From: a virus
Virus record (IMG/VR): IMGVR_UViG_3300018026_000007
Span: 10,897 to 74,896 of that record
DNA: 64,000 nucleotides
Strand: one strand, 5' to 3'
Shown: one piece after another, positions 389 through 56,292 of the stretch
Layout of the letters: each line of letters starts with the position of its first letter
How positions within the stretch are numbered: the first letter of the stretch is position 1
Made by a program: the position numbers and the translations under genes
Notes under the pieces: model-generated
The model's input: only the letters and a program-made list of their open reading frames with translations
Databases searched by the model: none
What the model was told of the DNA's origin: nothing

Positions 389-1920
389 CTTGGCAAGCAC
401 TGACAATCGCGATGGTTGGCTTGGGCGCGGGACTCTGCCTGGGCGTTTATCTCGGCATCTGGCTAGAGACCTGGGCATTAGTCACCAAGTTGAAAGACGC
501 TGATCGGCTAGATGATTTCCTGGACATCTTGGATTCGATAAAGGACAAGTGATGACGATTCAAATTACCGATGGGCCAAGTTTACTGGACCCGCTTGGGA
601 TCGCTCCAATTCATGTGTTAGGGGCCCTGCCTGGCAATCGGCGAGTAGTTGTGCTGACCGCTAGGACGTGGCGAGTCCGACTGGCCATCTGGTTGTTGCG
701 GGCGTATGTTAATACGGCAATTGCGAGCGCAAAGTGAGTACAAGCGCATATCTGCGCGGGGTGCCGCCAGGAATAGAAATCTGGGAGCGCATTGGCTTTC
801 GCGGACAAGAAGCCGTTTCATGGGAACAATCATTCGACCTTGGCAACCTGGACAGCGACTGAGTACAACGATGCCTGTCTACGTGGGCAGCAGAATCGAT
901 TGGAGAATCCGCCAGTCGAAGACGCGATCTACCTTGCTCGGGTAGCATGGTGTCATCTTCTGCAGTATGGCTTTCCGATACAGTCTGGCGCGCCACGAAC
1001 GGCTGCGCTCGGAGGGGCGGATGGACACGCAACACGAACTGAGCATTCTGACTAATGACGGCTGGGTGATTACGCTTCTTGCGGACCAGCCGCTGAGTTT
1101 CGACGACGCCGTGATATCGTCCATAATTGTCCAGCCGAAGGAAGACTATGCCAAAGGACTCGGGCAGCGTGGCTTTGGACGGCAACGCAGGATGTACCGA
1201 CTGAACCGCAGGGGCGTGGTGGTCTACCAGGATGGAGACGAAATATCGCTGTGAACGCGGCGCGCGGTCGGCACTTCAGATGGGCTGCAGGGCTATTCCA
1301 GATGTGCATCATTCCAAACAACAAACGGGGGGCAACAGTGATCTTTCAGTCCTGCCCGCGATCCAGTAGAGAGAAGGGAGACATACAGACAATGGTAGAG
1401 AAGATATGGGATGACGATCTTACAGCGGCAGAACGAACGCTATTGTTGCTGGCCGCGTATAAAGGCGAAGCTCGCCGTCTTCAAGGTTATGAGGCAGGAG
1501 TATTGTGGTATCGGCTGCCGTCCGATCTTCGGCGAGCTTTGCGAAACGTGAACTGGGCCATGGTGCTGGATCGCAACGTCGGATGACTGCGACCCTCGCG
1601 TCGGGTGATTGCGCTCGTCAAATCACGCTGGGGTTCCTCGACGGCAGTCGGTGACAGGTAGGTAGATTTTACGCGAATCGAGTGACGGCAGTTCGGCACT
1701 TCGCGAGCCAAATTTTGGTTGGTGCCGACATTTCGGCACTTCCAAATATGGAATATTCTATGATTTTGCGGATTTGATACAATTTCCCATATATTTGATT
1801 CGAAAGGGAACAACCATGACAGTCTGCAGACAGCCAGTCGAGAAGTTGCAGTTGATTCGAGTCGGCACGAAGGTGTATTTGTGCCGCGGCTGCGGTCAGA
1901 AGATCGTGCGCATCCGCTAA
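385..1920 (+). CDS. Cluster of small hypothetical ORFs (385-552, 552-737, 1021-1254, 1392-1586, 1816-1920)
   Basis: Stop/start overlaps and SD-like sequences; 1816-1920 (MTVCRQ...YLCRGCGQKIVRIR, 34 aa, AAGGGA SD) is not in the ORF track. Confidence 0.5.
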
Positions 1921-32479: not shown

Positions 32480-35400
32480 GTGGCCGACGATCAAACACCG
32501 ACTCAGACACCTGCTGCGCCGCCCGCCGAACCTGCCGAAGGGGTTCTTCATTCCCTCGCAACTTCGGTTGGTATTGATCCCGAAGCGGTCAAGAGTGCCT
32601 GGCGCACGATTAAGGCGGACCCTGTCCAAGCGGCCAAGGAAATCGGCGGGGCGCAGGTCGATGAGTTTGTCGAAGCCGCCAAACATCCCGTGGGCGCAGC
32701 TATGCTCGCGCTTCATGGTGTTGTAAACTCCATTACTAACCCCGAAGCCCAGGCGCAAGCCAAAGCGCGACTGCACTCGCCAGGCATCATGAATAAGCTG
32801 ATCGGGGCTCAAGAGTACCTGACCAGCGGAATTCCGTTTGTTGGTGGTGGGTATGCGAAAGCCGAAGAGCAGGGCGCGCGCGGCAATCTCCCTGGCGCGA
32901 TAGGTACAATCGTCGGTACTACGGCTCCGATTTTGGCAGGCGAAGCCGCACGAGTACCAGAAGCCATTCATGAAGCTGGGGCAGAAGCCCGTGCAAGCAT
33001 GGCCGCTCGGCATGAAGCGCGCATCGCCGAAGCCAAGACGGGTGACGTTATCACTGTCCGCCCAGACGAACAAACTCTGCCGCCAGCCCCTGCAGAAGCC
33101 GCGCCAGAAGCTAAAGCGGCTGCAGCACCAGAAGCTAAAGTTGCCCCCGAAGGTGGAGTGGTTCCCACTCACATTGATTTCAGCAAGATCGGCGGCATCG
33201 AGCGTCGGGGCCCGACTACCTTTGGTCGCGGTCAGGGCTCGTTTCCCGACACAGTCAACACGACATTTCAAATCATGCGCGAACTCGAAACGCCGACTGG
33301 CACCGCGCCCGAGGCACCTGAGATTCGCACCGAAGGTCCTACGTGGGATCGCATGCATAGCGCGTACGTGGGTGATGAAAAAGTCGGCTCGGTCGGGTAT
33401 AAACTCGATCCCGAAGGCGAAGCCAAGATTTATGGCTCCCAAGTGAAGCCCGAGCTTCGCGGCAAGGGCATCGGCCAGAAGCTCTATCGGTCAGCGATTG
33501 AAGAAGCGCGCAACGCGGGCGCGACTCGCATCATGAGCGATCCGACCCATCTATCGCCCGACGCGGCGCGCGTGTGGGAGCGGCTACAAGGTCGCGGTCT
33601 GCCTGTCGAAAGCATTACACACCCCACGGGCGAGCCAGGGTATCAGATTGATTTCGAGAAACAAGCAGAACCGCCAGCCGCGACGCCCGAGCCTCAGTTC
33701 GAGCAAACTCTTGCCCGTCGTGGTCAACTGCCGAACCAAAAAGTGAATCTGAGCGACGCATATGGTGCCACTGGCAAGTATGTCGGCGGACTGGTGGATT
33801 ATCGACCTCCCGCAGACATGCCTGCCGCCAGCCCGCTGGAAGCAGCGAACAAACTGCATGGCGTGACACACGGTCCAGAACTGTTGCCGATTCCCGAGCA
33901 TCTAATGACGCCTGGCGGAACATCGCATGATACCATCACTCACGAACTGGCGCATGGCGTGGTTGCCGACTTAGTAGGGCTACCCACGGAAGGCGCAGAA
34001 GTTTACAGTCATTTGCATCCCGTGGCGACGGCGCGGGGGTCCGCCGCGACTATCGACCTCCCGTACCATAAGATTCCAGGCACTAGACAGGATTTTCTCA
34101 GCGGTGATGTGCATTTTCCGCGCCCCGTCCTGGAAGCAACCTGGCCGAAGTTCATTCCGACATATTTGGCTGGTGGCGTGGCGCAAGAACTTGTCCACGG
34201 CATTCCCTTCGAAAAGAATGAGGGAATGTATGGGGACTTGGAAGGGCTGCACCATATTGGCAAGATGATGGGCTTCACGCGCGCCGAAACGCAGGACATG
34301 ATTAACGCAGGCATTCAGCAGACGCGCGACCTATTGAACCATCCCGAGACTCTTGAGATACTCAGGAAATCGGCGGGCGAGCGCGAAGAAGGTCTGCCGA
34401 GAACGCTGCATGCCAGCGCGGATAAAGTTCAAGATGTTATTCGACAAGTAAGGGAGGCACGACATGAACCAATCATTACTGAAGCTGGGGCTGAACATGG
34501 CGCAGTCCCTGCGGAAGCTGAACCCCGAGCAGCAGGAGCAGGCGCGGAAAAAGATGTACGAGAAGACTACGGGCAAGGAATATCGCCCCGCGCAGAAGCA
34601 AGAAAAGTAGGTGCGGAATACCATCCCGACCTGCAAAAATTGGCAGATCAATTTGGCGTCGATTCCGATGCCGAGAAAATACGAAACGGCGCGTCATTCA
34701 TCGCACCAGACGGAAAGTTCATTCATTTAAGTGGTGGGGCAACACATGACGCAGCGATTGATTGGGCGACGGGGCGGGGAGTCACCAAAGAAGCTCCCGA
34801 TAATCGAGTGGCGTTTTTGCGCGATACGGGTGCAGTTCGCACTCGCTTCACAACTGGCAAAGCAGGCAACCAACTTGCCGTTTCTGTTCCGAAGGCTGGT
34901 ATTACGCCCGAGCAAGTGAATGCTCTCAAACAGGCGGTCGGTCAAGGGCTAGGCCGAAACGGAAATCTCACGATGGAAATCGGAGAGCCAAGCGGAGCGG
35001 CGGCGGGGCCTAAAGAATTTGCCACTCCAAAAGATGTCGAGCCAATGTTGAAACAGATTGGCGCACATCCCGAACAAGCCGTTACCCCGAAGCTAGATGC
35101 TCGCAAGCGCGCCGCCATTCAGAATAACGTCACGCCGATTGAACATACCACAGCAAACGACCTGATGTTCGAGCAGGGGAAGAAAGATTGGGCGGCCCGC
35201 GCGGCAGAGTCTGTCAAGACGGGCGGCTTCACGATTCATCCAGAGACTGGTCATATTCCTGAAGAGGGGCATGTGATTGAAGTGGCACCTGAGCAGCGCA
35301 AAGCGTTGCCAGCCACCCCAACCAAGGAAGACATCGAACAGTTTCATGCAGAGCGCAAGCCGCTGTTCCAACAGCATCCCGAGTTGCATGTGGGCGGCTA

Positions 35401-38053
35401 CGGGAATGAATTAAATGTGAGCGCGGTCGGCACACCCGAAGGTGCGAAGCTGGTCGGCAACAAACTGGACCAGGAAGCGGGCTGGGATGCCAAGAATAAA
35501 GAACTCGTGCCGTATGAAGGTAAAGGTAAACAGACTTCGTTCCCTGGCTATCCGCTTGAGCAGCGACTGAAGGAACTCGGGACGCCAGAAGGTGGCACGA
35601 TTTCTCCGATTCTTGAGGCGCGCAAAGCACCAGAAGAGCCGACGCTGCCGCTGTCCCAATTCAAAATCATTGGCGGCAAAGAAGAAGAATTCCAACAGGC
35701 AGTGAAGAACTCCCCGTTCGCGGGCATTAGCAAGCGCGGGCTGACCGTGAACTTGACACGATTCCAGAAGCCAGAACAGAAGGGTGAACAAGCTGGGCGT
35801 GGTGGCGTCTTCTATTTGGGCGGCGAAGGCGGAGCAGGTTACTATGCTCGCAAAACAGTGGGCGGAATGCCTGTGCCATACGGCGGCCCAGAAGAAATGC
35901 GCGGACGAACTACGTTCCAGAACCCGCTGATTGTGAAGGGTGGATTTGGCGGGCATATGCAAGAAAAAGCCATAGATGCATTATCTGGTGGGGCCAAAAC
36001 ACTGAGGGGACTTTTCATTGCCGCTCATACTGCAGCACAATTCAAAGCGGGCGATGAACAAGTTCAGGCAATCGCCGATGTATTGAAACAATATGGTGGA
36101 AATCCTCAATCCGCTTATGATATATGGGCGGGGTCAAGAAGCACTCAGCAAATAGCCGCAGCGGTCTACGACCATGTGGTAGGACAAATGGCAAAAGACG
36201 CAGGACATGATGCCATCATTGGCTACTACAAAAAGCCAGGTGGCGGCTATCGTATTTCGGAAGTCTTCGACCTAACTGCTGAAACATTCCCAGAGAAGTC
36301 AGAACCCAAGGGTGCGACGACGGTGCTGCAAAAGCATCCGCTTGTAATCGAAGGGACGGGACCTGGCGGACGTACGACGGTCGTCGATTTGGCAAGCGCG
36401 TTGAACGAATGGTCGCAAGCGGGATTGAAACCCAAGAAGGAAATCAGTGTTGCTCTTGACCGCGCTCGGGCCGAACTACAATATCAATTGGCGCAGGACA
36501 ACAGCGGGCTAAACTGGTACAAGTCCGATGTGAAAGACGCCATCGGGCACCTGCAGGCAAATGGATTCCCTGAGTTGAAAGACCCTGTCCAGGACAAACT
36601 ATTCCGCGTTCTGTGGGGAGTCACTTCGTACGGCGTTGACCCCGATGTCAATCTGACTTCGGCGGCGGAAGCCTGGAAGCAATACAAGGAAACTGGCAAG
36701 ATTCCGCTCAAGGCGGACGCGAAAACTAACTGGCCTGGCTACAGCGGCATCAAGGGTAGCATCACGCTCTTGAACAAACTGATCGACGAGAAGGGCGAAC
36801 AGGGCGCGGTCGATTGGCTGCTCTCGAAGCATCCCGTGAGCGAGATTCGCGAACAGAAATTGAAGACCCATGAAGTTCATGGTGTAGCTGGAAAAGCGGG
36901 CGAAGAAAAATATGGAGCCTTTATCTTCGGTCCCAAAGGCGGACCATACACACTCAGTCTGCAGGGTATTACTGACCACACGACCGTTGACGTGTGGGGC
37001 GCGCGCATGATTCGTCGTTGGACTGGCACGCTGACGCCCGAGAGCATGATCCAGCCCGTGACGCCAGGAGAGGCGCGGAAGTTTCATCAGGTAGTTGAGA
37101 ACGTCGGCAAAGAGTTTGGACTTGACACGTCGGATGTCCAGGCGGTACTATGGGGGTACGAGCACGATCTATACGAAGCTCACGGCGCGGGCGAAGCCGC
37201 GAAGAGTTACAAGGGAGCAGCAGAAAAATATGTCACAAGACAAAAAGAAGGAAACACCCGAGACTTCATCCGAGAGCAATCAGGTCTTTTCGCCGAAAAA
37301 TATGCAAGACCGATGGAACAAGCTCAAGGCGGCAGGGAAAGTGCCCCCGCTGGCGGACCTGCTGAAAGTCGTACAGAAGGGCTGATGGAGGGTCTCTCCC
37401 GTCTCGGCAAGCCCGCTGAACCAAGCGAAGCTGCCGAGCCCGAAGAGGGCGATACTTCCTTTCAGTTTGGCGCGAATGTTCTCAAGGGCTTGGAAAAACC
37501 TGGCTCCGCAGCCAAGAAGCCCATCCCAACAAAACTCAAGCAAACCAAGACGGTCGCGGATAATATGAACGATCCCGACACCCGTTTCAATGCTGCCCGT
37601 CATGAGGCAGCGCACGCCGTCATTAGCGAAGCACTGAATCCTGGCTCTGTCAACATGACTGGACTCACGGCTGGTGGTGGCGTGACCGACATCCAGCCGC
37701 CCGCTGGAAAGCAAACCGTGGGTCAACTCTCGCCCGACGAGGTTCGCAATATGATCGCCACGTCGTACGCGGGTGGTCTCTCGGAACAGGGCGGCACGAC
37801 CGCGCGGCATGCGAGCGGCGATGTGGCAGCACGAGCCCAGGTCCTGGCGGGCAGGGGAACAGCGGCATTTGGGCAGGCTCCTGAACTGCAGGCGGAAGCG
37901 CGGGCCCGTGTGAATGCGTTGCTGGCTGATCCTGCGGTGCAACAGCACATCAACACGTTGACGACACACATCACGACCAAGGGAAAGCTCTCGGGTGATG
38001 AAGTCCGCGCGATTTTGAAGGGGCAAACGCAGTCCTTGACACCCGTGCGGTAA
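32480..38053 (+). CDS. Large polyvalent protein (GNAT, two HExxH metallopeptidase domains, ART-like, HhH-glycosylase-like)
   Basis: VKPELRGKGIGQKLY; HELAH and HEAAH each followed by a (Y/L)AGG..E and D; GVFY..GHDAII..E; GPK..TVDVWGAR..VQAVLW. Confidence 0.75.
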   Translation: MADDQTPTQTPAAPPAEPAEGVLHSLATSVGIDPEAVKSAWRTIKADPVQAAKEIGGAQVDEFVEAAKHPVGAAMLALHGVVNSITNPEAQAQAKARLHSPGIMNKLIGAQEYLTSGIPFVGGGYAKAEEQGARGNLPGAIGTIVGTTAPILAGEAARVPEAIHEAGAEARASMAARHEARIAEAKTGDVITVRPDEQTLPPAPAEAAPEAKAAAAPEAKVAPEGGVVPTHIDFSKIGGIERRGPTTFGRGQGSFPDTVNTTFQIMRELETPTGTAPEAPEIRTEGPTWDRMHSAYVGDEKVGSVGYKLDPEGEAKIYGSQVKPELRGKGIGQKLYRSAIEEARNAGATRIMSDPTHLSPDAARVWERLQGRGLPVESITHPTGEPGYQIDFEKQAEPPAATPEPQFEQTLARRGQLPNQKVNLSDAYGATGKYVGGLVDYRPPADMPAASPLEAANKLHGVTHGPELLPIPEHLMTPGGTSHDTITHELAHGVVADLVGLPTEGAEVYSHLHPVATARGSAATIDLPYHKIPGTRQDFLSGDVHFPRPVLEATWPKFIPTYLAGGVAQELVHGIPFEKNEGMYGDLEGLHHIGKMMGFTRAETQDMINAGIQQTRDLLNHPETLEILRKSAGEREEGLPRTLHASADKVQDVIRQVREARHEPIITEAGAEHGAVPAEAEPRAAGAGAEKDVREDYGQGISPRAEARKVGAEYHPDLQKLADQFGVDSDAEKIRNGASFIAPDGKFIHLSGGATHDAAIDWATGRGVTKEAPDNRVAFLRDTGAVRTRFTTGKAGNQLAVSVPKAGITPEQVNALKQAVGQGLGRNGNLTMEIGEPSGAAAGPKEFATPKDVEPMLKQIGAHPEQAVTPKLDARKRAAIQNNVTPIEHTTANDLMFEQGKKDWAARAAESVKTGGFTIHPETGHIPEEGHVIEVAPEQRKALPATPTKEDIEQFHAERKPLFQQHPELHVGGYGNELNVSAVGTPEGAKLVGNKLDQEAGWDAKNKELVPYEGKGKQTSFPGYPLEQRLKELGTPEGGTISPILEARKAPEEPTLPLSQFKIIGGKEEEFQQAVKNSPFAGISKRGLTVNLTRFQKPEQKGEQAGRGGVFYLGGEGGAGYYARKTVGGMPVPYGGPEEMRGRTTFQNPLIVKGGFGGHMQEKAIDALSGGAKTLRGLFIAAHTAAQFKAGDEQVQAIADVLKQYGGNPQSAYDIWAGSRSTQQIAAAVYDHVVGQMAKDAGHDAIIGYYKKPGGGYRISEVFDLTAETFPEKSEPKGATTVLQKHPLVIEGTGPGGRTTVVDLASALNEWSQAGLKPKKEISVALDRARAELQYQLAQDNSGLNWYKSDVKDAIGHLQANGFPELKDPVQDKLFRVLWGVTSYGVDPDVNLTSAAEAWKQYKETGKIPLKADAKTNWPGYSGIKGSITLLNKLIDEKGEQGAVDWLLSKHPVSEIREQKLKTHEVHGVAGKAGEEKYGAFIFGPKGGPYTLSLQGITDHTTVDVWGARMIRRWTGTLTPESMIQPVTPGEARKFHQVVENVGKEFGLDTSDVQAVLWGYEHDLYEAHGAGEAAKSYKGAAEKYVTRQKEGNTRDFIREQSGLFAEKYARPMEQAQGGRESAPAGGPAESRTEGLMEGLSRLGKPAEPSEAAEPEEGDTSFQFGANVLKGLEKPGSAAKKPIPTKLKQTKTVADNMNDPDTRFNAARHEAAHAVISEALNPGSVNMTGLTAGGGVTDIQPPAGKQTVGQLSPDEVRNMIATSYAGGLSEQGGTTARHASGDVAARAQVLAGRGTAAFGQAPELQAEARARVNALLADPAVQQHINTLTTHITTKGKLSGDEVRAILKGQTQSLTPVR
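34464..34610 (+). CDS. Nested +1-frame ORF (48 aa) inside the polyvalent gene
   Basis: TAAGGGAGG SD 6 nt before ATG; helical peptide MNQSLLKLGLNMAQSLRKLNPEQQEQARKKMYEK... Confidence 0.55.
   Translation: MNQSLLKLGLNMAQSLRKLNPEQQEQARKKMYEKTTGKEYRPAQKQEK
37230..37385 (+). CDS. Nested +1-frame ORF (51 aa) inside the polyvalent gene
   Basis: AAGGGAG 12 nt upstream; amphipathic MQDRWNKLKAAGKVPPLADLLKVVQKG. Confidence 0.45.
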   Translation: MSQDKKKETPETSSESNQVFSPKNMQDRWNKLKAAGKVPPLADLLKVVQKG

Positions 38054-38070
38054 GCGTGTAACATAGGGGT

Positions 38071-54999: not shown

Positions 55000-56292
55000 T
55001 GACTGCTGAGTTGGCTCATACCTGGCCCGACTCGCGCGGTAAGTGCGGCTTCTGCGGCAAGGAAGAGAACGGCTATGCCAAGCGCGACGAAAGCGGACAG
55101 TTCCGCGCAGCCTGCTGGTCGTGCATCAACAAAGACCGCGTGATAGGCGAGCAGCCCAAGCGCAAGCAAGTTGGCACCGTTTTCACCGAAGACCTGGACA
55201 CGGACGACCAGATTGCCAAGCGAGAGAAGGCCACAAAGAAAGCGAAAGGGATTCCGCCGTCCGATTACAGACCGAAAGTTTTATAGGGAGGCCCCGATGC
55301 TGGGACGAATTCTTTTTAGCGTGATTACTGGGATGGTTCTTGGTGCGCTGCCCGCCCTTCCCCTGTTTCTCATCAGCAGTTTTGTCGATGACCGTCCAAA
55401 TTTATGGTTTTGGCCGCTATTCGGCGGGGTATTCACCATTGTTATATTTTTTAGTCCTGCTGCAAAAGGGGAGAAGAAATGACAAACAGAACGAAAACTG
55501 ACTGGGCCTATAAAAAAGCCGAAAAACTTCAACAAGCGGTGATGGATCACCTTTGGTTCACGCCGCTGGGGCACATCAACGAACGAAAACTTGAAGATCG
55601 GCGAATGATTGCCGCTGCACTGCGTCGCGCCTATCGGAAGGGGCTGCACGCCAATGGATGATTCAATCAAAACCGCGACTGGCGACGACGCGCTGCGGCA
55701 GGTGCAGAAACAGGCGGCTGAGATGGCCGCCGTTGATAATCAGGCCGAACGCGGCTATGCTCATCTAGGCTGGTTGTTACTCGAAGTCGCTGAGATGGGA
55801 TATTGGCGTGTGCGCTACAACACTTTTCGCGACTACCTGCGACTGGTTGCGGCTCACGCAAAGCGGACGGTCGGGCAACTTCAGCAGTATTATCTCACTG
55901 TCCGTGATCTGAGTGACACTTTTTCAGCCGCGCAGTTAGAAACCATGGGAATAACCAAAGCAATTCGGTTGCGGGCAGCCAAGGACTACGCTATTGTGCT
56001 GCCCGCCTCCGTGGTGAACGCCGCACTGGACCCGAAGGTCACGGTCAAGGAATTGAAGCAAATAATCTCCACCGCGCTGAAGATGCCCGAAGAAGAAGGT
56101 GATTGGATGGACCTGGAGTTTGAATTTATGGTGACTCCCGAGCAGCGAGCACTCTTCACCCAGGCCATTGACGTGGCGATGCACACCGAGCCGCTGACGA
56201 AGAAGACCATCTCGAAGTCGGCGCAGATGTTGGATGTCATGACCAAGCTCGCGCAAGAATTTTTGGGGGCGCACTCAGGGGACGGCCAATGA
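54996..56292 (+). CDS. Four hypothetical proteins (54996-55286, 55297-55482, 55479-55661, 55654-56292)
   Basis: Coupled starts and stops. Confidence 0.6.

What the first reader, a model, noticed from the sequence alone, without database searches (positions are those of the whole stretch)
34449..37385. Small genes nested in the +1 frame right after enzymatic domains of the polyvalent protein: candidate built-in inhibitors
Seen: inside the 1857-aa ORF, a strong SD (TAAGGGAGG, 6-nt spacing) precedes a 48-aa +1-frame ORF (34464-34610) directly after the first HExxH peptidase domain. A second +1-frame ORF (37230-37385, 51 aa, weaker SD spacing of 12 nt) directly follows the glycosylase-like domain. 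In both places the host frame degenerates into a G/A/E/R/P linker (HEPIITEAGAEHGAVPAEAEPRAAGAG; MEQAQGGRESAPAGGPAESRTEG) while the nested frame reads as amphipathic helices, suggesting the constraint sits on the nested frame. Known: phage polyvalent proteins are thought to be delivered with the DNA and to carry conflict enzymes. Inference: each cassette carries an overprinted inhibitor or chaperone that silences it in the producer cell and is left behind on injection, so domain and inhibitor shuffle as one unit.
Basis: partly seen in the sequence, partly recalled or inferred. Interest (0 to 1): 0.9.

Follow-up and report, generated by a model that had tools for sequence, protein, structure and literature searches.

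The report
Hidden partner genes inside giant phage gene
Two small genes are written one base out of step inside the floppy spacers of a 1,857-codon phage gene, each right after an enzyme-like domain; distant phages keep both, and the first is predicted to dock onto the protease domain it follows, so these giant 'polyvalent' genes hide unannotated partner proteins.

Summary
Both nested +1-frame ORFs exist as described, and both belong to conserved small-protein families.

ORF1 (34464-34610) has the phage's own AGGGAG-type ribosome site. The same SD-ATG small ORF sits in the +1 frame in every viral-contig relative found (18 distinct ORFs, about 14 giant genes). It starts 163-180 codons after the HExxH motif. 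In the overlap, substitutions follow the nested frame's codon pattern, not the host's.

The upstream domain folds like the FtsH (M41) protease domain. A controlled complex prediction places the peptide over its catalytic cleft (score 0.88, best control 0.52). The family also occurs fused to a small HExxH peptidase, and as a free gene 1.5 kb from a stand-alone HEAGH peptidase.

ORF2 (37230-37385) is a C-terminally shortened member of a second family. That family lies next to a DNA-glycosylase-fold domain in 16 of 25 relatives. It is usually a free-standing gene just past the stop, and is sometimes nested as here.

The inhibitor role, silencing in the producer cell and exclusion from the virion are untested. 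No paper found describes this. Earlier follow-ups of this scan reported the same layout on other DNA.

The parts
32480..38053 (+). Host gene: 1857-aa modular 'polyvalent' protein. It lies downstream of the portal and major head genes and upstream of the endonuclease VII, exonuclease, recombinase and DNA polymerase genes.
   Evidence: domain shuffling among homologues; neighbours.
33344..33592 (+). GNAT acetyltransferase domain (host aa 289-371).
   Evidence: Pfam PF00583, E 1.5e-11.
33821..34465 (+). Domain A: FtsH/M41-like zinc peptidase domain without an AAA+ module. HELAH lies at 33941-33955. H41, E42, H45, H66-P67 and D139 are invariant in the alignment.
   Evidence: Alignment A6; model pLDDT 90.6; best PDB matches are FtsH/YME1 protease domains, E 8e-4, TM 0.50-0.56.
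34449..34457 (+). Ribosome-binding site of ORF1 (TAAGGGAGG), coded inside host codons V-R-E-A. Its TAA closes the +1 frame 4 codons before the ATG.
   Evidence: An SD is kept in all relatives even where the host residues differ.
34464..34610 (+). ORF1: nested +1-frame gene of 48 aa, a helix-(S/N)P-helix peptide. It belongs to the 'window-type' branch of family X.
   Evidence: predicted to bind domain A.
36296..37229 (+). Domain E: all-alpha domain with an HhH-GPD DNA-glycosylase-like fold (weak DUF7178 hit).
   Evidence: Model pLDDT 88. The top 23 structural matches are all HhH-GPD glycosylases or DUF2419, Z up to 10.5. Pfam DUF7178 E 0.018.
37211..37217 (+). Candidate ribosome-binding site of ORF2 (AAGGGAG, 12 nt before the ATG).
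   Evidence: The spacing is longer than at this phage's confirmed starts (5-9 nt).
37230..37385 (+). ORF2: nested +1-frame ORF of 51 aa, a C-terminally shortened member of family Z. It sits in a ~55-codon host-frame insert, absent from relatives where Z is free-standing.
   Evidence: A Z profile built without the window finds only this run in the six-frame window: E 7.9e-7, profile positions 5-34 of 56.
37475..38053 (+). Domain F: second, shorter HExxH (HEAAH) peptidase-like domain at the host C-terminus. No nested ORF follows it.
   Evidence: The family X profile finds only ORF1 in the window.

Best explanation
ORF1 and ORF2 are members of two conserved small-protein families, here called X and Z. 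Each is genomically tied to one enzymatic domain of giant phage polyvalent proteins.

In this phage both are overprinted in the +1 frame on low-complexity inter-domain spacers of the host gene. Each is translated from its own SD-ATG on the same mRNA.

X is a ~45-aa helix-SP-helix peptide. It most likely docks onto the FtsH/M41-like zinc protease domain encoded just upstream and covers its catalytic cleft. This would regulate, and most probably restrain, a protease thought to process the polyprotein.

Z plays an analogous, still undefined, partner role for the DNA-glycosylase-fold domain. The window's copy is shortened and may be weakened.

Shown: the sequence features, conservation, frame-specific constraint, domain linkage and fold assignments. 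Inferred from a model: binding. Inferred only: inhibition and its timing.
For: 1. Conservation of layout. Loci were fetched by patterns that say nothing about context. In them, every viral-contig X member is in the +1 frame of a giant ORF (complete host frames 1068-2163 aa; several loci are cut by contig ends). That is 18 distinct ORFs in about 14 host genes. All have an SD 5-10 nt before an ATG, and the start lies 163-180 codons after HExxH. The exceptions are tandem second copies and L115.

2. Frame-specific selection. In the 35-codon core, mean pairwise identity is 0.397 in the nested frame and 0.245 in the host frame (88 of 91 pairs). In domain A it is 0.211 and 0.417 (0 of 91 pairs). Nucleotide diversity at host codon positions 1/2/3 is 0.49/0.55/0.32 in the overlap and 0.45/0.36/0.66 in domain A. 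Between the window and L003, differences at host positions 1/2/3 are 22/12/5 in the overlap and 57/36/107 in the flank, chi-square p = 1.8e-5.

3. Independent initiation. In 9 of 18 cases a +1-frame stop lies 0-4 codons before the ATG.

4. The family is large: 72 small proteins and 239 clusters at 50% identity.

5. Functional link to the peptidase.
- Domain A resembles the FtsH protease domain.
- The co-fold scores ipSAE 0.88 against a best control of 0.52. This mark was reached by 58 of 80 solved complexes and 2 of 110 mismatched pairs. The runs share at least 86% of contacts, and partner pLDDT is at least 83. The interface includes His45 of HExxH, invariant Asp139 and strand 77-80.
- P0199 is X fused in frame to a small HExxH peptidase.
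- On contig L398 a free X-Y gene lies 1.5 kb from a stand-alone 210-aa HEAGH peptidase.
- The X subtype tracks the domain A subtype.

6. Family Z. It is present beside domain E in 16 of 25 loci. It is a free-standing SD-ATG gene just past the host stop in at least six of them, and nested +1 in L332-L336/L343 and in the window. An unbiased profile hit to the window has E 7.9e-7. In L332/L334/L335 the nested frame changes less, and more conservatively, than the host frame.
Against: - There is no expression or translation data.
- Binding rests on a structure model. The peptide also scored 0.52 against an unrelated protein, so it is somewhat sticky.
- A profile of TTEQL-type X members alone does not detect the window's ORF1. 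Homology of the window-type branch rests on a profile-profile match (probability 90.8%, E 1.2e-6, 29 columns), on position, and on the intermediate P0053.
- L115 has two X copies but no HExxH domain in the host ORF.
- X also exists as free genes whose neighbourhoods are mostly unexamined.
- ORF2 lacks the family's C-terminal helix, its SD spacing of 12 nt is long, and no close relative of the window allows a selection test on this copy.
- Physical adjacency alone could explain why the small ORFs co-travel with their domains.
Confidence: 0.6

Rival explanations
1. X is a real overprinted gene, but it acts as a chaperone, activator, cofactor or decoy substrate of the FtsH-like domain, or as an assembly factor of the polyprotein, rather than as an inhibitor.
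For: The same linkage and co-fold data fit any tight binder. Lambda CIII is both inhibitor and substrate of FtsH (PMC1838920), so the categories overlap.
Against: The predicted interface covers the catalytic His45, Asp139 and the edge strand. That is the expected footprint of an occluding ligand or substrate, not of a distal activator.
Confidence: 0.25
2. X targets the host's own FtsH or another host protease, like lambda CIII. It is merely encoded next to a phage domain of the same fold.
For: Domain A has the FtsH protease fold. CIII is a ~54-aa amphipathic FtsH inhibitor (PMC1838920). Free-standing X genes exist.
Against: X is fixed right after the phage's own domain in about 14 giant genes. 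The X subtype co-varies with the phage domain subtype. An in-frame fusion to a small phage-type peptidase exists. Sequence similarity to CIII was not tested.
Confidence: 0.1
3. ORF2 in this window is a decaying relic of a Z gene that was carried into the host linker. It is open by chance and no longer functional.
For: It stops at profile position 34 of 56 and lacks the C-terminal helix kept in free-standing members. The SD spacing is 12 nt. No downstream remnant of the lost part was seen by eye in the frames after the stop at 37385 (sequence; no dedicated search).
Against: The retained part keeps the family's best-conserved motif. The AGGGAG site matches this phage's start signals. The independently nested copies in L332-L336 are also shortened (to position 45) yet look constrained. 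The host frame is pure low-complexity filler over exactly this insert.
Confidence: 0.3
4. The +1 peptide is reached by programmed +1 ribosomal frameshifting stimulated by the SD-like element. This would give a truncated host protein with an alternative tail, not a separate small protein.
For: SD-like sequences can stimulate frameshifting (general knowledge; review PMC5009743 listed, not read in detail).
Against: An ATG is kept in all 18 cases at SD-appropriate spacing. In 9 of them a +1-frame stop lies 0-4 codons upstream, leaving no room for a shift site. In L152 the stop abuts the ATG.
Confidence: 0.03
5. Both ORFs are chance open frames in compositionally biased linkers.
For: Nine +1-frame ATG ORFs of 30 aa or more occur in the host gene, and ORF1's length is unremarkable.
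Against: Conservation, an inverted codon-position pattern, a conserved SD-ATG and hundreds of database relatives.
Confidence: 0.02

Closest known systems
Embedded spanin genes Rz/Rz1 of phage lambda and relatives (Kongari et al. 2018, PMC6139136)
   Same: A small gene lies wholly inside a larger gene, on the same strand and in the +1 frame. It has its own ribosome site, and its product works together with the protein encoded by the host frame.
   Different: Rz1 is a secreted outer-membrane lipoprotein. X and Z show no signal peptide or lipobox, and the window's ORF1 peptide has no cysteine. Here the host is a multi-domain polyprotein, the overlap is confined to a spacer, and the partner is an enzymatic domain.
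Lambda CIII, a small amphipathic inhibitor and substrate of the FtsH protease (Kobiler et al. 2007, PMC1838920)
   Same: A phage peptide of ~50 aa, largely one or two amphipathic helices, that engages an FtsH-type zinc protease. This is a functional analogy to the predicted X-domain A complex.
   Different: CIII targets the host's AAA+ FtsH and is a free-standing gene. X follows a phage-encoded FtsH-like domain that lacks the AAA+ module, and it is overprinted. Sequence relationship was not tested.
Polyvalent proteins of phages and conjugative elements with zincin-like metallopeptidase domains (Iyer et al. 2017, PMC5512222)
   Same: A giant multi-domain protein with shuffled enzymatic domains, including HExxH peptidases proposed to process the polypeptide.
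   Different: That paper's text has no occurrence of 'overlapping' and no mention of nested genes. The peptidase here is FtsH-like by fold, and none of the LPD families matched X or Z.
Enzyme or toxin genes with an adjacent small cognate inhibitor or immunity gene, such as polymorphic toxin-immunity pairs and toxin-antitoxin pairs (own knowledge)
   Same: A small binder is encoded immediately after the enzymatic module it neutralises, and the pair moves together.
   Different: Here the binder is overprinted inside the same ORF for X, or alternates between nested and free-standing for Z. Inhibition is not shown, and the enzymes are not known to be toxic.

Membership tests
Same-strand embedded overlapping gene (Rz1-in-Rz type architecture) | Small ORF lies wholly inside a larger ORF, same strand, +1 frame. 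| tested here: met
Same-strand embedded overlapping gene (Rz1-in-Rz type architecture) | Purifying selection acts on the embedded frame. | tested here: met
   ORF1 family. ORF2 family: only in L332/334/335, by eye. Not testable on the window's own ORF2.
Two-component spanin (o-spanin Rz1) | Lipoprotein signal peptide with a lipobox cysteine. | tested here: not met
   The ORF1 and ORF2 peptides have no cysteine and no hydrophobic N-terminal segment.
Peptidase family M41 (FtsH protease domain), for domain A | HExxH zinc site plus a downstream acidic third ligand. | tested here: inconclusive
   HExxH is invariant, and Asp139 is invariant and lies at the predicted interface. Its role as a ligand was not verified.
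Peptidase family M41 (FtsH protease domain), for domain A | Fold similarity to solved FtsH protease domains. | tested here: met
   Foldseek top hits are FtsH, YME1 and FtsHi: E 8e-4 to 5e-2, TM 0.45-0.56.
Peptidase family M41 (FtsH protease domain), for domain A | Pfam PF01434 match and a preceding AAA+ ATPase module. | tested here: not met
   No Pfam hit for the domain. The domain is preceded by a GNAT domain and a linker, not by an AAA+ module.
Family X (new; TTEQL...MSPEEKAE-type nested peptides) | Sequence match of window ORF1 to the family profile. | tested here: inconclusive
   A TTEQL-only profile gives no hit in the window. The profile-profile match of the window-type branch has probability 90.8%, E 1.2e-6. 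P0053 is intermediate.
Family X (new; TTEQL...MSPEEKAE-type nested peptides) | Position: +1 frame, SD-ATG, 163-180 codons after the HExxH of an FtsH-like domain. | tested here: met
   The window's ORF1 starts 174 codons after HExxH.
Family Z (new; small gene beside the glycosylase-fold domain) | Sequence match of window ORF2 to a profile built without it. | tested here: met
   E 7.9e-7; it is the only hit in the six-frame window and covers profile positions 5-34 of 56.
HhH-GPD DNA glycosylase superfamily, for domain E | Fold. | tested here: met
   The VIA-align top 23 hits are all from this superfamily or DUF2419: Z 10.5 to 5.4, with 163-214 residues aligned. Foldseek alone was weak.
HhH-GPD DNA glycosylase superfamily, for domain E | Helix-hairpin-helix plus Gly/Pro-rich loop and catalytic Asp. 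| not tested
   Residue-level mapping was not done.
Lambda CIII-type FtsH inhibitor | Sequence homology to CIII; inhibition of FtsH. | not tested
   No CIII sequence was fetched. Activity needs an experiment.

The most novel reading that the evidence does not exclude
Giant phage polyvalent proteins are built from cassettes, each made of an enzymatic domain plus its own small cognate binder. The binder gene can sit free beside the domain or be overprinted on the spacer that follows it. The binders act as removable safety catches that keep the protease, the DNA-glycosylase-like module and others silent until delivery. Under this reading, dual-coding spacers would be a general, unannotated layer of phage counter-defence genes.
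Probability: 0.35. Interest if true: 0.9.

Novelty: new variant of a known kind. Interest (0 to 1): 0.8.

Why it matters
Gene callers never report ORFs nested on the same strand inside a long ORF, so these proteins are invisible in phage annotation. Yet family X alone has 239 clusters at 50% identity.

If the peptides are cognate regulators of the domains they follow, they give a handle on how polyvalent or ejected polyproteins are kept inactive, processed and deployed. They would also supply a natural peptide ligand for an FtsH-type protease fold and a candidate partner for a phage DNA-glycosylase-like enzyme.

The family also offers a clean natural case for studying how overprinting arises. 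The same small gene is found free-standing, fused in frame and overprinted.

Tried and rejected
DNA for most protein-database homologues (Logan/ENA) could therefore not be fetched, and the contexts of most of the 72 and 239 small proteins are unknown.
- The metagenome scan with alignment A1 found nothing, because the degenerate HExxH patterns swamped the candidates.
- The YEKTTGK DNA pattern in viral contigs recovered only L003's contig.
Its first 120 loci held only unrelated proteins, such as DUF3106-like repeats. This is no evidence of absence from bacterial genomes.
- GenBank phage records show no tblastn match to X or Z at E 0.01 or better. The whole host protein gave only four distant domain E matches.
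- Pfam and PHROGs give no family for X, Z or domain A. The sub-threshold hits were judged compositional: Inhibitor_I34 for the 96-aa ORF2 run (20.6 bits, cutoff 25), BESS and Toxofilin-like.
- The ESM Atlas search for Z gave nothing usable. The PDB sequence search for domain E gave nothing.
- Sequencing runs: no RNA holder is listed. The phage is near-clonal in the four runs laid, with one substitution in 4.3 kb, so polymorphism could not test selection on ORF2.
- Promoter scan: a TTGACA-18-TACTAT site lies at 37122-37151 upstream of ORF2. However, the number of sites equals the shuffled expectation (3 against 2.5 +/- 1.5), so it was not used.
- The TTEQL-only profile failed to find window ORF1.
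- P0199 against the domain A profile matched only the HExxH helix (probability 41%).
- A co-fold of Z with domain E was not run because the cap is one job.
- Formal two-frame dN/dS was not computed. Codon-position and per-frame identity statistics were used instead.
Full report
**Observation**

The window is part of a 74.9-kb uncultured virus record. It is found almost unchanged in more than twenty peat and wetland metagenomes.

The 1857-aa ORF at 32480-38053 lies downstream of the portal and major head genes. It lies upstream of the endonuclease VII, exonuclease, UvsX-like recombinase and DNA polymerase genes.

- ORF1 is ATG 34464 to 34610, 48 aa, in frame +1. It follows TAAGGGAGG by 6 nt.
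- ORF2 is ATG 37230 to 37385, 51 aa. It lies inside a 96-codon +1 open run and follows AAGGGAG by 12 nt.

Their length is not special. The host gene holds nine +1-frame ATG ORFs of 30 aa or more.

Their start sites are special. AGGGAG is this phage's ribosome-site motif.
- Five of its 12 plus-strand copies precede major genes, including the host gene itself.
- Nine of the 12 are followed by ATG or GTG within 5-12 nt, including both nested ORFs.
- None of the five minus-strand copies precedes an ORF of any length.

**The host is a shuffled modular protein**

BLAST of P0001 against 22 database homologues shows blocks that recur in different orders:
- GNAT, aa 289-371 (Pfam)
- domain A, about 460-660, the first HExxH
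- domain B, about 712-870
- domain C, about 903-1035
- domain D, about 1062-1272
- domain E, about 1273-1583
- domain F, about 1666-1857, the second HExxH

ORF1 covers host aa about 662-711, between A and B. ORF2 covers aa about 1584-1635, just after E.

**ORF1 is a conserved overprinted gene**

The host-frame 'linker' after domain A looked oddly conserved in protein homologues. DNA from relatives explained this.

L003 is 48% identical to the window in the host frame. It has GGGAGG, 6 nt, an ATG and a 49-aa +1 ORF at the same place. That ORF is 56% identical overall to ORF1, and 62% identical over the 37-codon core where the host frame is only 32% identical.

I then fetched loci with patterns that do not depend on the nested ORF. 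One was a motif of domain B. The other was the MSPEEKA motif scanned regardless of context. A profile search of six-frame translations gave a clear result:
- Every family member in viral contigs lies in the +1 frame of a giant ORF. This covers 18 distinct ORFs in about 14 host genes whose complete frames run 1068-2163 aa; several loci are cut by contig ends.
- Each has an SD 5-10 nt before an ATG.
- Each starts 163-180 codons after HExxH.

The exceptions are tandem second copies (L110, L115, L142) and L115, whose host has no HExxH.

In L109 and L112 the domain order is B then A, and the nested ORF still follows A. Loci without domain A (L124, L127) have no member.

**Frame-specific constraint**

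| Region | Identity, nested frame | Identity, host frame | Diversity at host codon positions 1/2/3 |
|---|---|---|---|
| 35-codon ungapped core, 14 loci | 0.397 | 0.245 | 0.49/0.55/0.32 |
| 165 ungapped codons of domain A | 0.211 | 0.417 | 0.45/0.36/0.66 |

The nested frame is the more conserved in 88 of 91 pairs in the core, and in 0 of 91 pairs in domain A. The codon-position diversity pattern is inverted between the two regions.

For the window against L003, differences at host positions 1/2/3 are 22/12/5 in the overlap and 57/36/107 in the flank (p = 1.8e-5).

**Initiation, not frameshifting**

The ATG is present in all 18 cases. In nine of them a +1-frame stop lies 0-4 codons upstream; in L152 the stop abuts the ATG, and in the window it is the TAA of the SD. 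This leaves independent initiation as the only plausible route.

**The X family**

A profile of 11 nested peptides finds 72 small proteins in the 5.8-billion-protein set. It finds 239 clusters at 50% identity in the exhaustive search. None has a Pfam family.

The signature is T-T-E-Q-L, about ten residues, then M-S-P-E-E-K-A-E-x-R-K-x-L. This reads as two amphipathic helices joined at Ser-Pro.

The window's ORF1 belongs to a divergent branch with L003, the first copy in L142, P0035, P0044 and P0063.
- A profile of the main branch alone does not detect ORF1.
- The two branches match profile to profile (probability 90.8%, E 1.2e-6, 29 columns).
- They occupy the same position and frame, and P0053 is intermediate between them.

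I treat family membership as probable, not proven. The window-type branch is conserved and nested in its own right.

In metagenome contigs the family also occurs as free-standing genes. One example is a 115-aa fusion of X with a second module, Y.

**Link to the peptidase**

Domain A was modelled from a 14-sequence alignment at pLDDT 90.6. It is most like the FtsH/YME1 M41 protease domain (Foldseek E 8e-4, TM 0.50-0.56).
- It keeps HExxH, an invariant Asp139 and an FtsH-like GGxAA(D/E)E motif.
- It has no AAA+ module and no Pfam hit.

A controlled complex prediction of domain A with the ORF1 peptide supports binding.
- The score is 0.88 against a best control of 0.52.
- That mark was reached by 58 of 80 solved complexes and by 2 of 110 mismatched pairs.
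- The runs share at least 86% of contacts, and partner pLDDT is at least 83.
- The interface includes His45 of HExxH, Asp139 and the edge strand 77-80, which is the catalytic cleft.

This is a model's confidence, not a measurement. The control with an unrelated chain 1 scored 0.52, so the peptide is somewhat sticky.

There are three independent genomic hints:
- P0199 fuses X in frame to a small HExxH peptidase.
- On contig L398 a free X-Y gene lies 1.5 kb from a stand-alone 210-aa HEAGH / LAGITSEA peptidase (Pfam M41 E 8.8e-4, below cutoff; hhalign to domain A 79%).
- The X branch tracks the domain A branch.

**ORF2 belongs to a second family, Z**

tblastn of the ORF2 run against 25 viral loci that carry domain E (30-36% identical) found relatives right after that domain.
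- In L321, L322, L325, L326, L327 and L330 they are free-standing 56-84-aa genes with SD and ATG, starting just past the host's stop.
- In L332-L336 and L343 the host reads on, and they are nested in the +1 frame, as in the window.
- A profile finds Z beside domain E in 16 of 25 loci.
- Built without the window, that profile picks out only the ORF2 run in the whole six-frame window (E 7.9e-7). It aligns only to positions 5-34 of 56, so the window's copy lacks the C-terminal helix.

Compared with relatives where Z is free, the window's host frame carries a ~55-codon low-complexity insert. It lies between the end of domain E and the conserved F-x-F-G-A-N tail, and it is exactly the Z-coding segment. 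The arrangement is therefore not a simple read-through fusion.

Among the close trio L332/L334/L335, the nested frame shows 6 mostly conservative changes in 42 residues. The host frame shows 10, several of them radical (by eye).

No close relative of the window exists to test its own copy. The four runs laid carry the phage with a single substitution over this 4.3-kb stretch.

**Domain E**

The model has pLDDT 88. It gave weak Foldseek hits. A full structural scan returned 23 top matches, all HhH-GPD DNA glycosylases or the related DUF2419, with Z up to 10.5. 'Glycosylase-like' is therefore right in the DNA-glycosylase sense. The 'lysin' label on distant phage homologues is probably wrong.

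**Mechanism**

*Shown:* two conserved small-protein families, dual coding under selection for X, own start signals, and tight linkage to one domain each.

*Inferred from a model:* X binds across the protease cleft.

*Inferred only:* X restrains a protease that, by the proposal of Iyer et al. (PMC5512222), processes the polyprotein. Z does something similar for the glycosylase-like module.

Lambda CIII is a ~54-aa amphipathic inhibitor and substrate of FtsH (PMC1838920). It is the nearest functional precedent. Rz1 inside Rz (PMC6139136) is the nearest architectural one.

Whether the peptides stay behind at injection cannot be addressed here.

**Novelty**

I found no paper describing nested genes in polyvalent proteins. 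Iyer et al. never use the word 'overlapping'.

Earlier follow-ups of this same scan reported the same layout on other genomes. One of them pairs a peptidase-like and a DNA-glycosylase-like domain with two small-protein families. I saw these notes only after reaching my reading, and they are unchecked AI notes.

My estimates:
- ORF1 is a real gene: about 0.9.
- It binds domain A: about 0.6.
- It is specifically an inhibitor: about 0.35.
- The window's ORF2 is still functional: about 0.5-0.6.

Noticed in passing
L109:917-1144(-), L112:2168-2368(-); also L110:5467-5688, L142, L195, L129: A third conserved +1-frame small ORF ('Y', motif ...TRENYLRLxFLGNPP...ELPE, 66-78 aa) lies near the 3' end of the giant ORFs. 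In L129 it lies mostly downstream of the host stop. Y is fused to X in free-standing proteins (P0133, P0189, and the 115-aa gene L398:2203-2553(-)). It is not present in this window.
   Followed up: partly
window 1375-1380 (ATG 1392, 64 aa) and 55285-55290 (ATG 55297, 61 aa): Two further AGGGAG ribosome-site motifs are followed by ATG ORFs of about 60 aa. They could be unannotated small genes.
   Followed up: no
L110:2824-3075, L115:6904-7227(-), L142 (two copies about 200 codons apart): Tandem or repeated X genes occur inside one host gene. In L115 both copies follow a GNAT domain directly, with no HExxH domain in the host ORF.
   Followed up: partly
database proteins P0029, P0042, P0043, P0047, P0051, P0058, P0060, P0064, P0072 and others: Many called X-family proteins end in a shared C-terminal motif just before the stop: (K/R/E)-(P/W/R)-(V/I)-(N/H/Q), for example GKPVN, EWIN, DRVN. 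It may be a functional tail or the shadow of a conserved host-frame motif. Another recurring short motif is (S/T)xxDRxFLxxxGI.
   Followed up: no
L346:11845-13186: Just upstream of the free-standing X-Y gene lie two genes: a pentapeptide-repeat plus TIR-domain protein (PF13676, E 1.4e-24) and a RusA-like resolvase.
   Followed up: no
window about 33686-33790 (host aa 403-437) and the same segment in L001: A conserved segment (PQFEQxLAxRGQLPxQ...AYGxTGxYV) lies between the GNAT domain and the peptidase. It is kept even where about 100 residues are inserted before HExxH. It is a possible processing or docking site.
   Followed up: no
window 37122-37151: A sigma-70-like TTGACA-18-TACTAT site lies about 80 nt upstream of ORF2's ATG. 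The count of such sites in the region equals the shuffled expectation.
   Followed up: partly
window 33800-38060: This stretch, sampled by 31-letter words, is held by 24 listed peat or wetland metagenome runs from 23 studies (2017-2025). In the four runs laid there was a single substitution (35481 G>A).
   Followed up: partly
L323 and L328 (minus strand just after domain E): In two loci the Z-family hit lies on the opposite strand, immediately after the glycosylase-fold domain.
   Followed up: no
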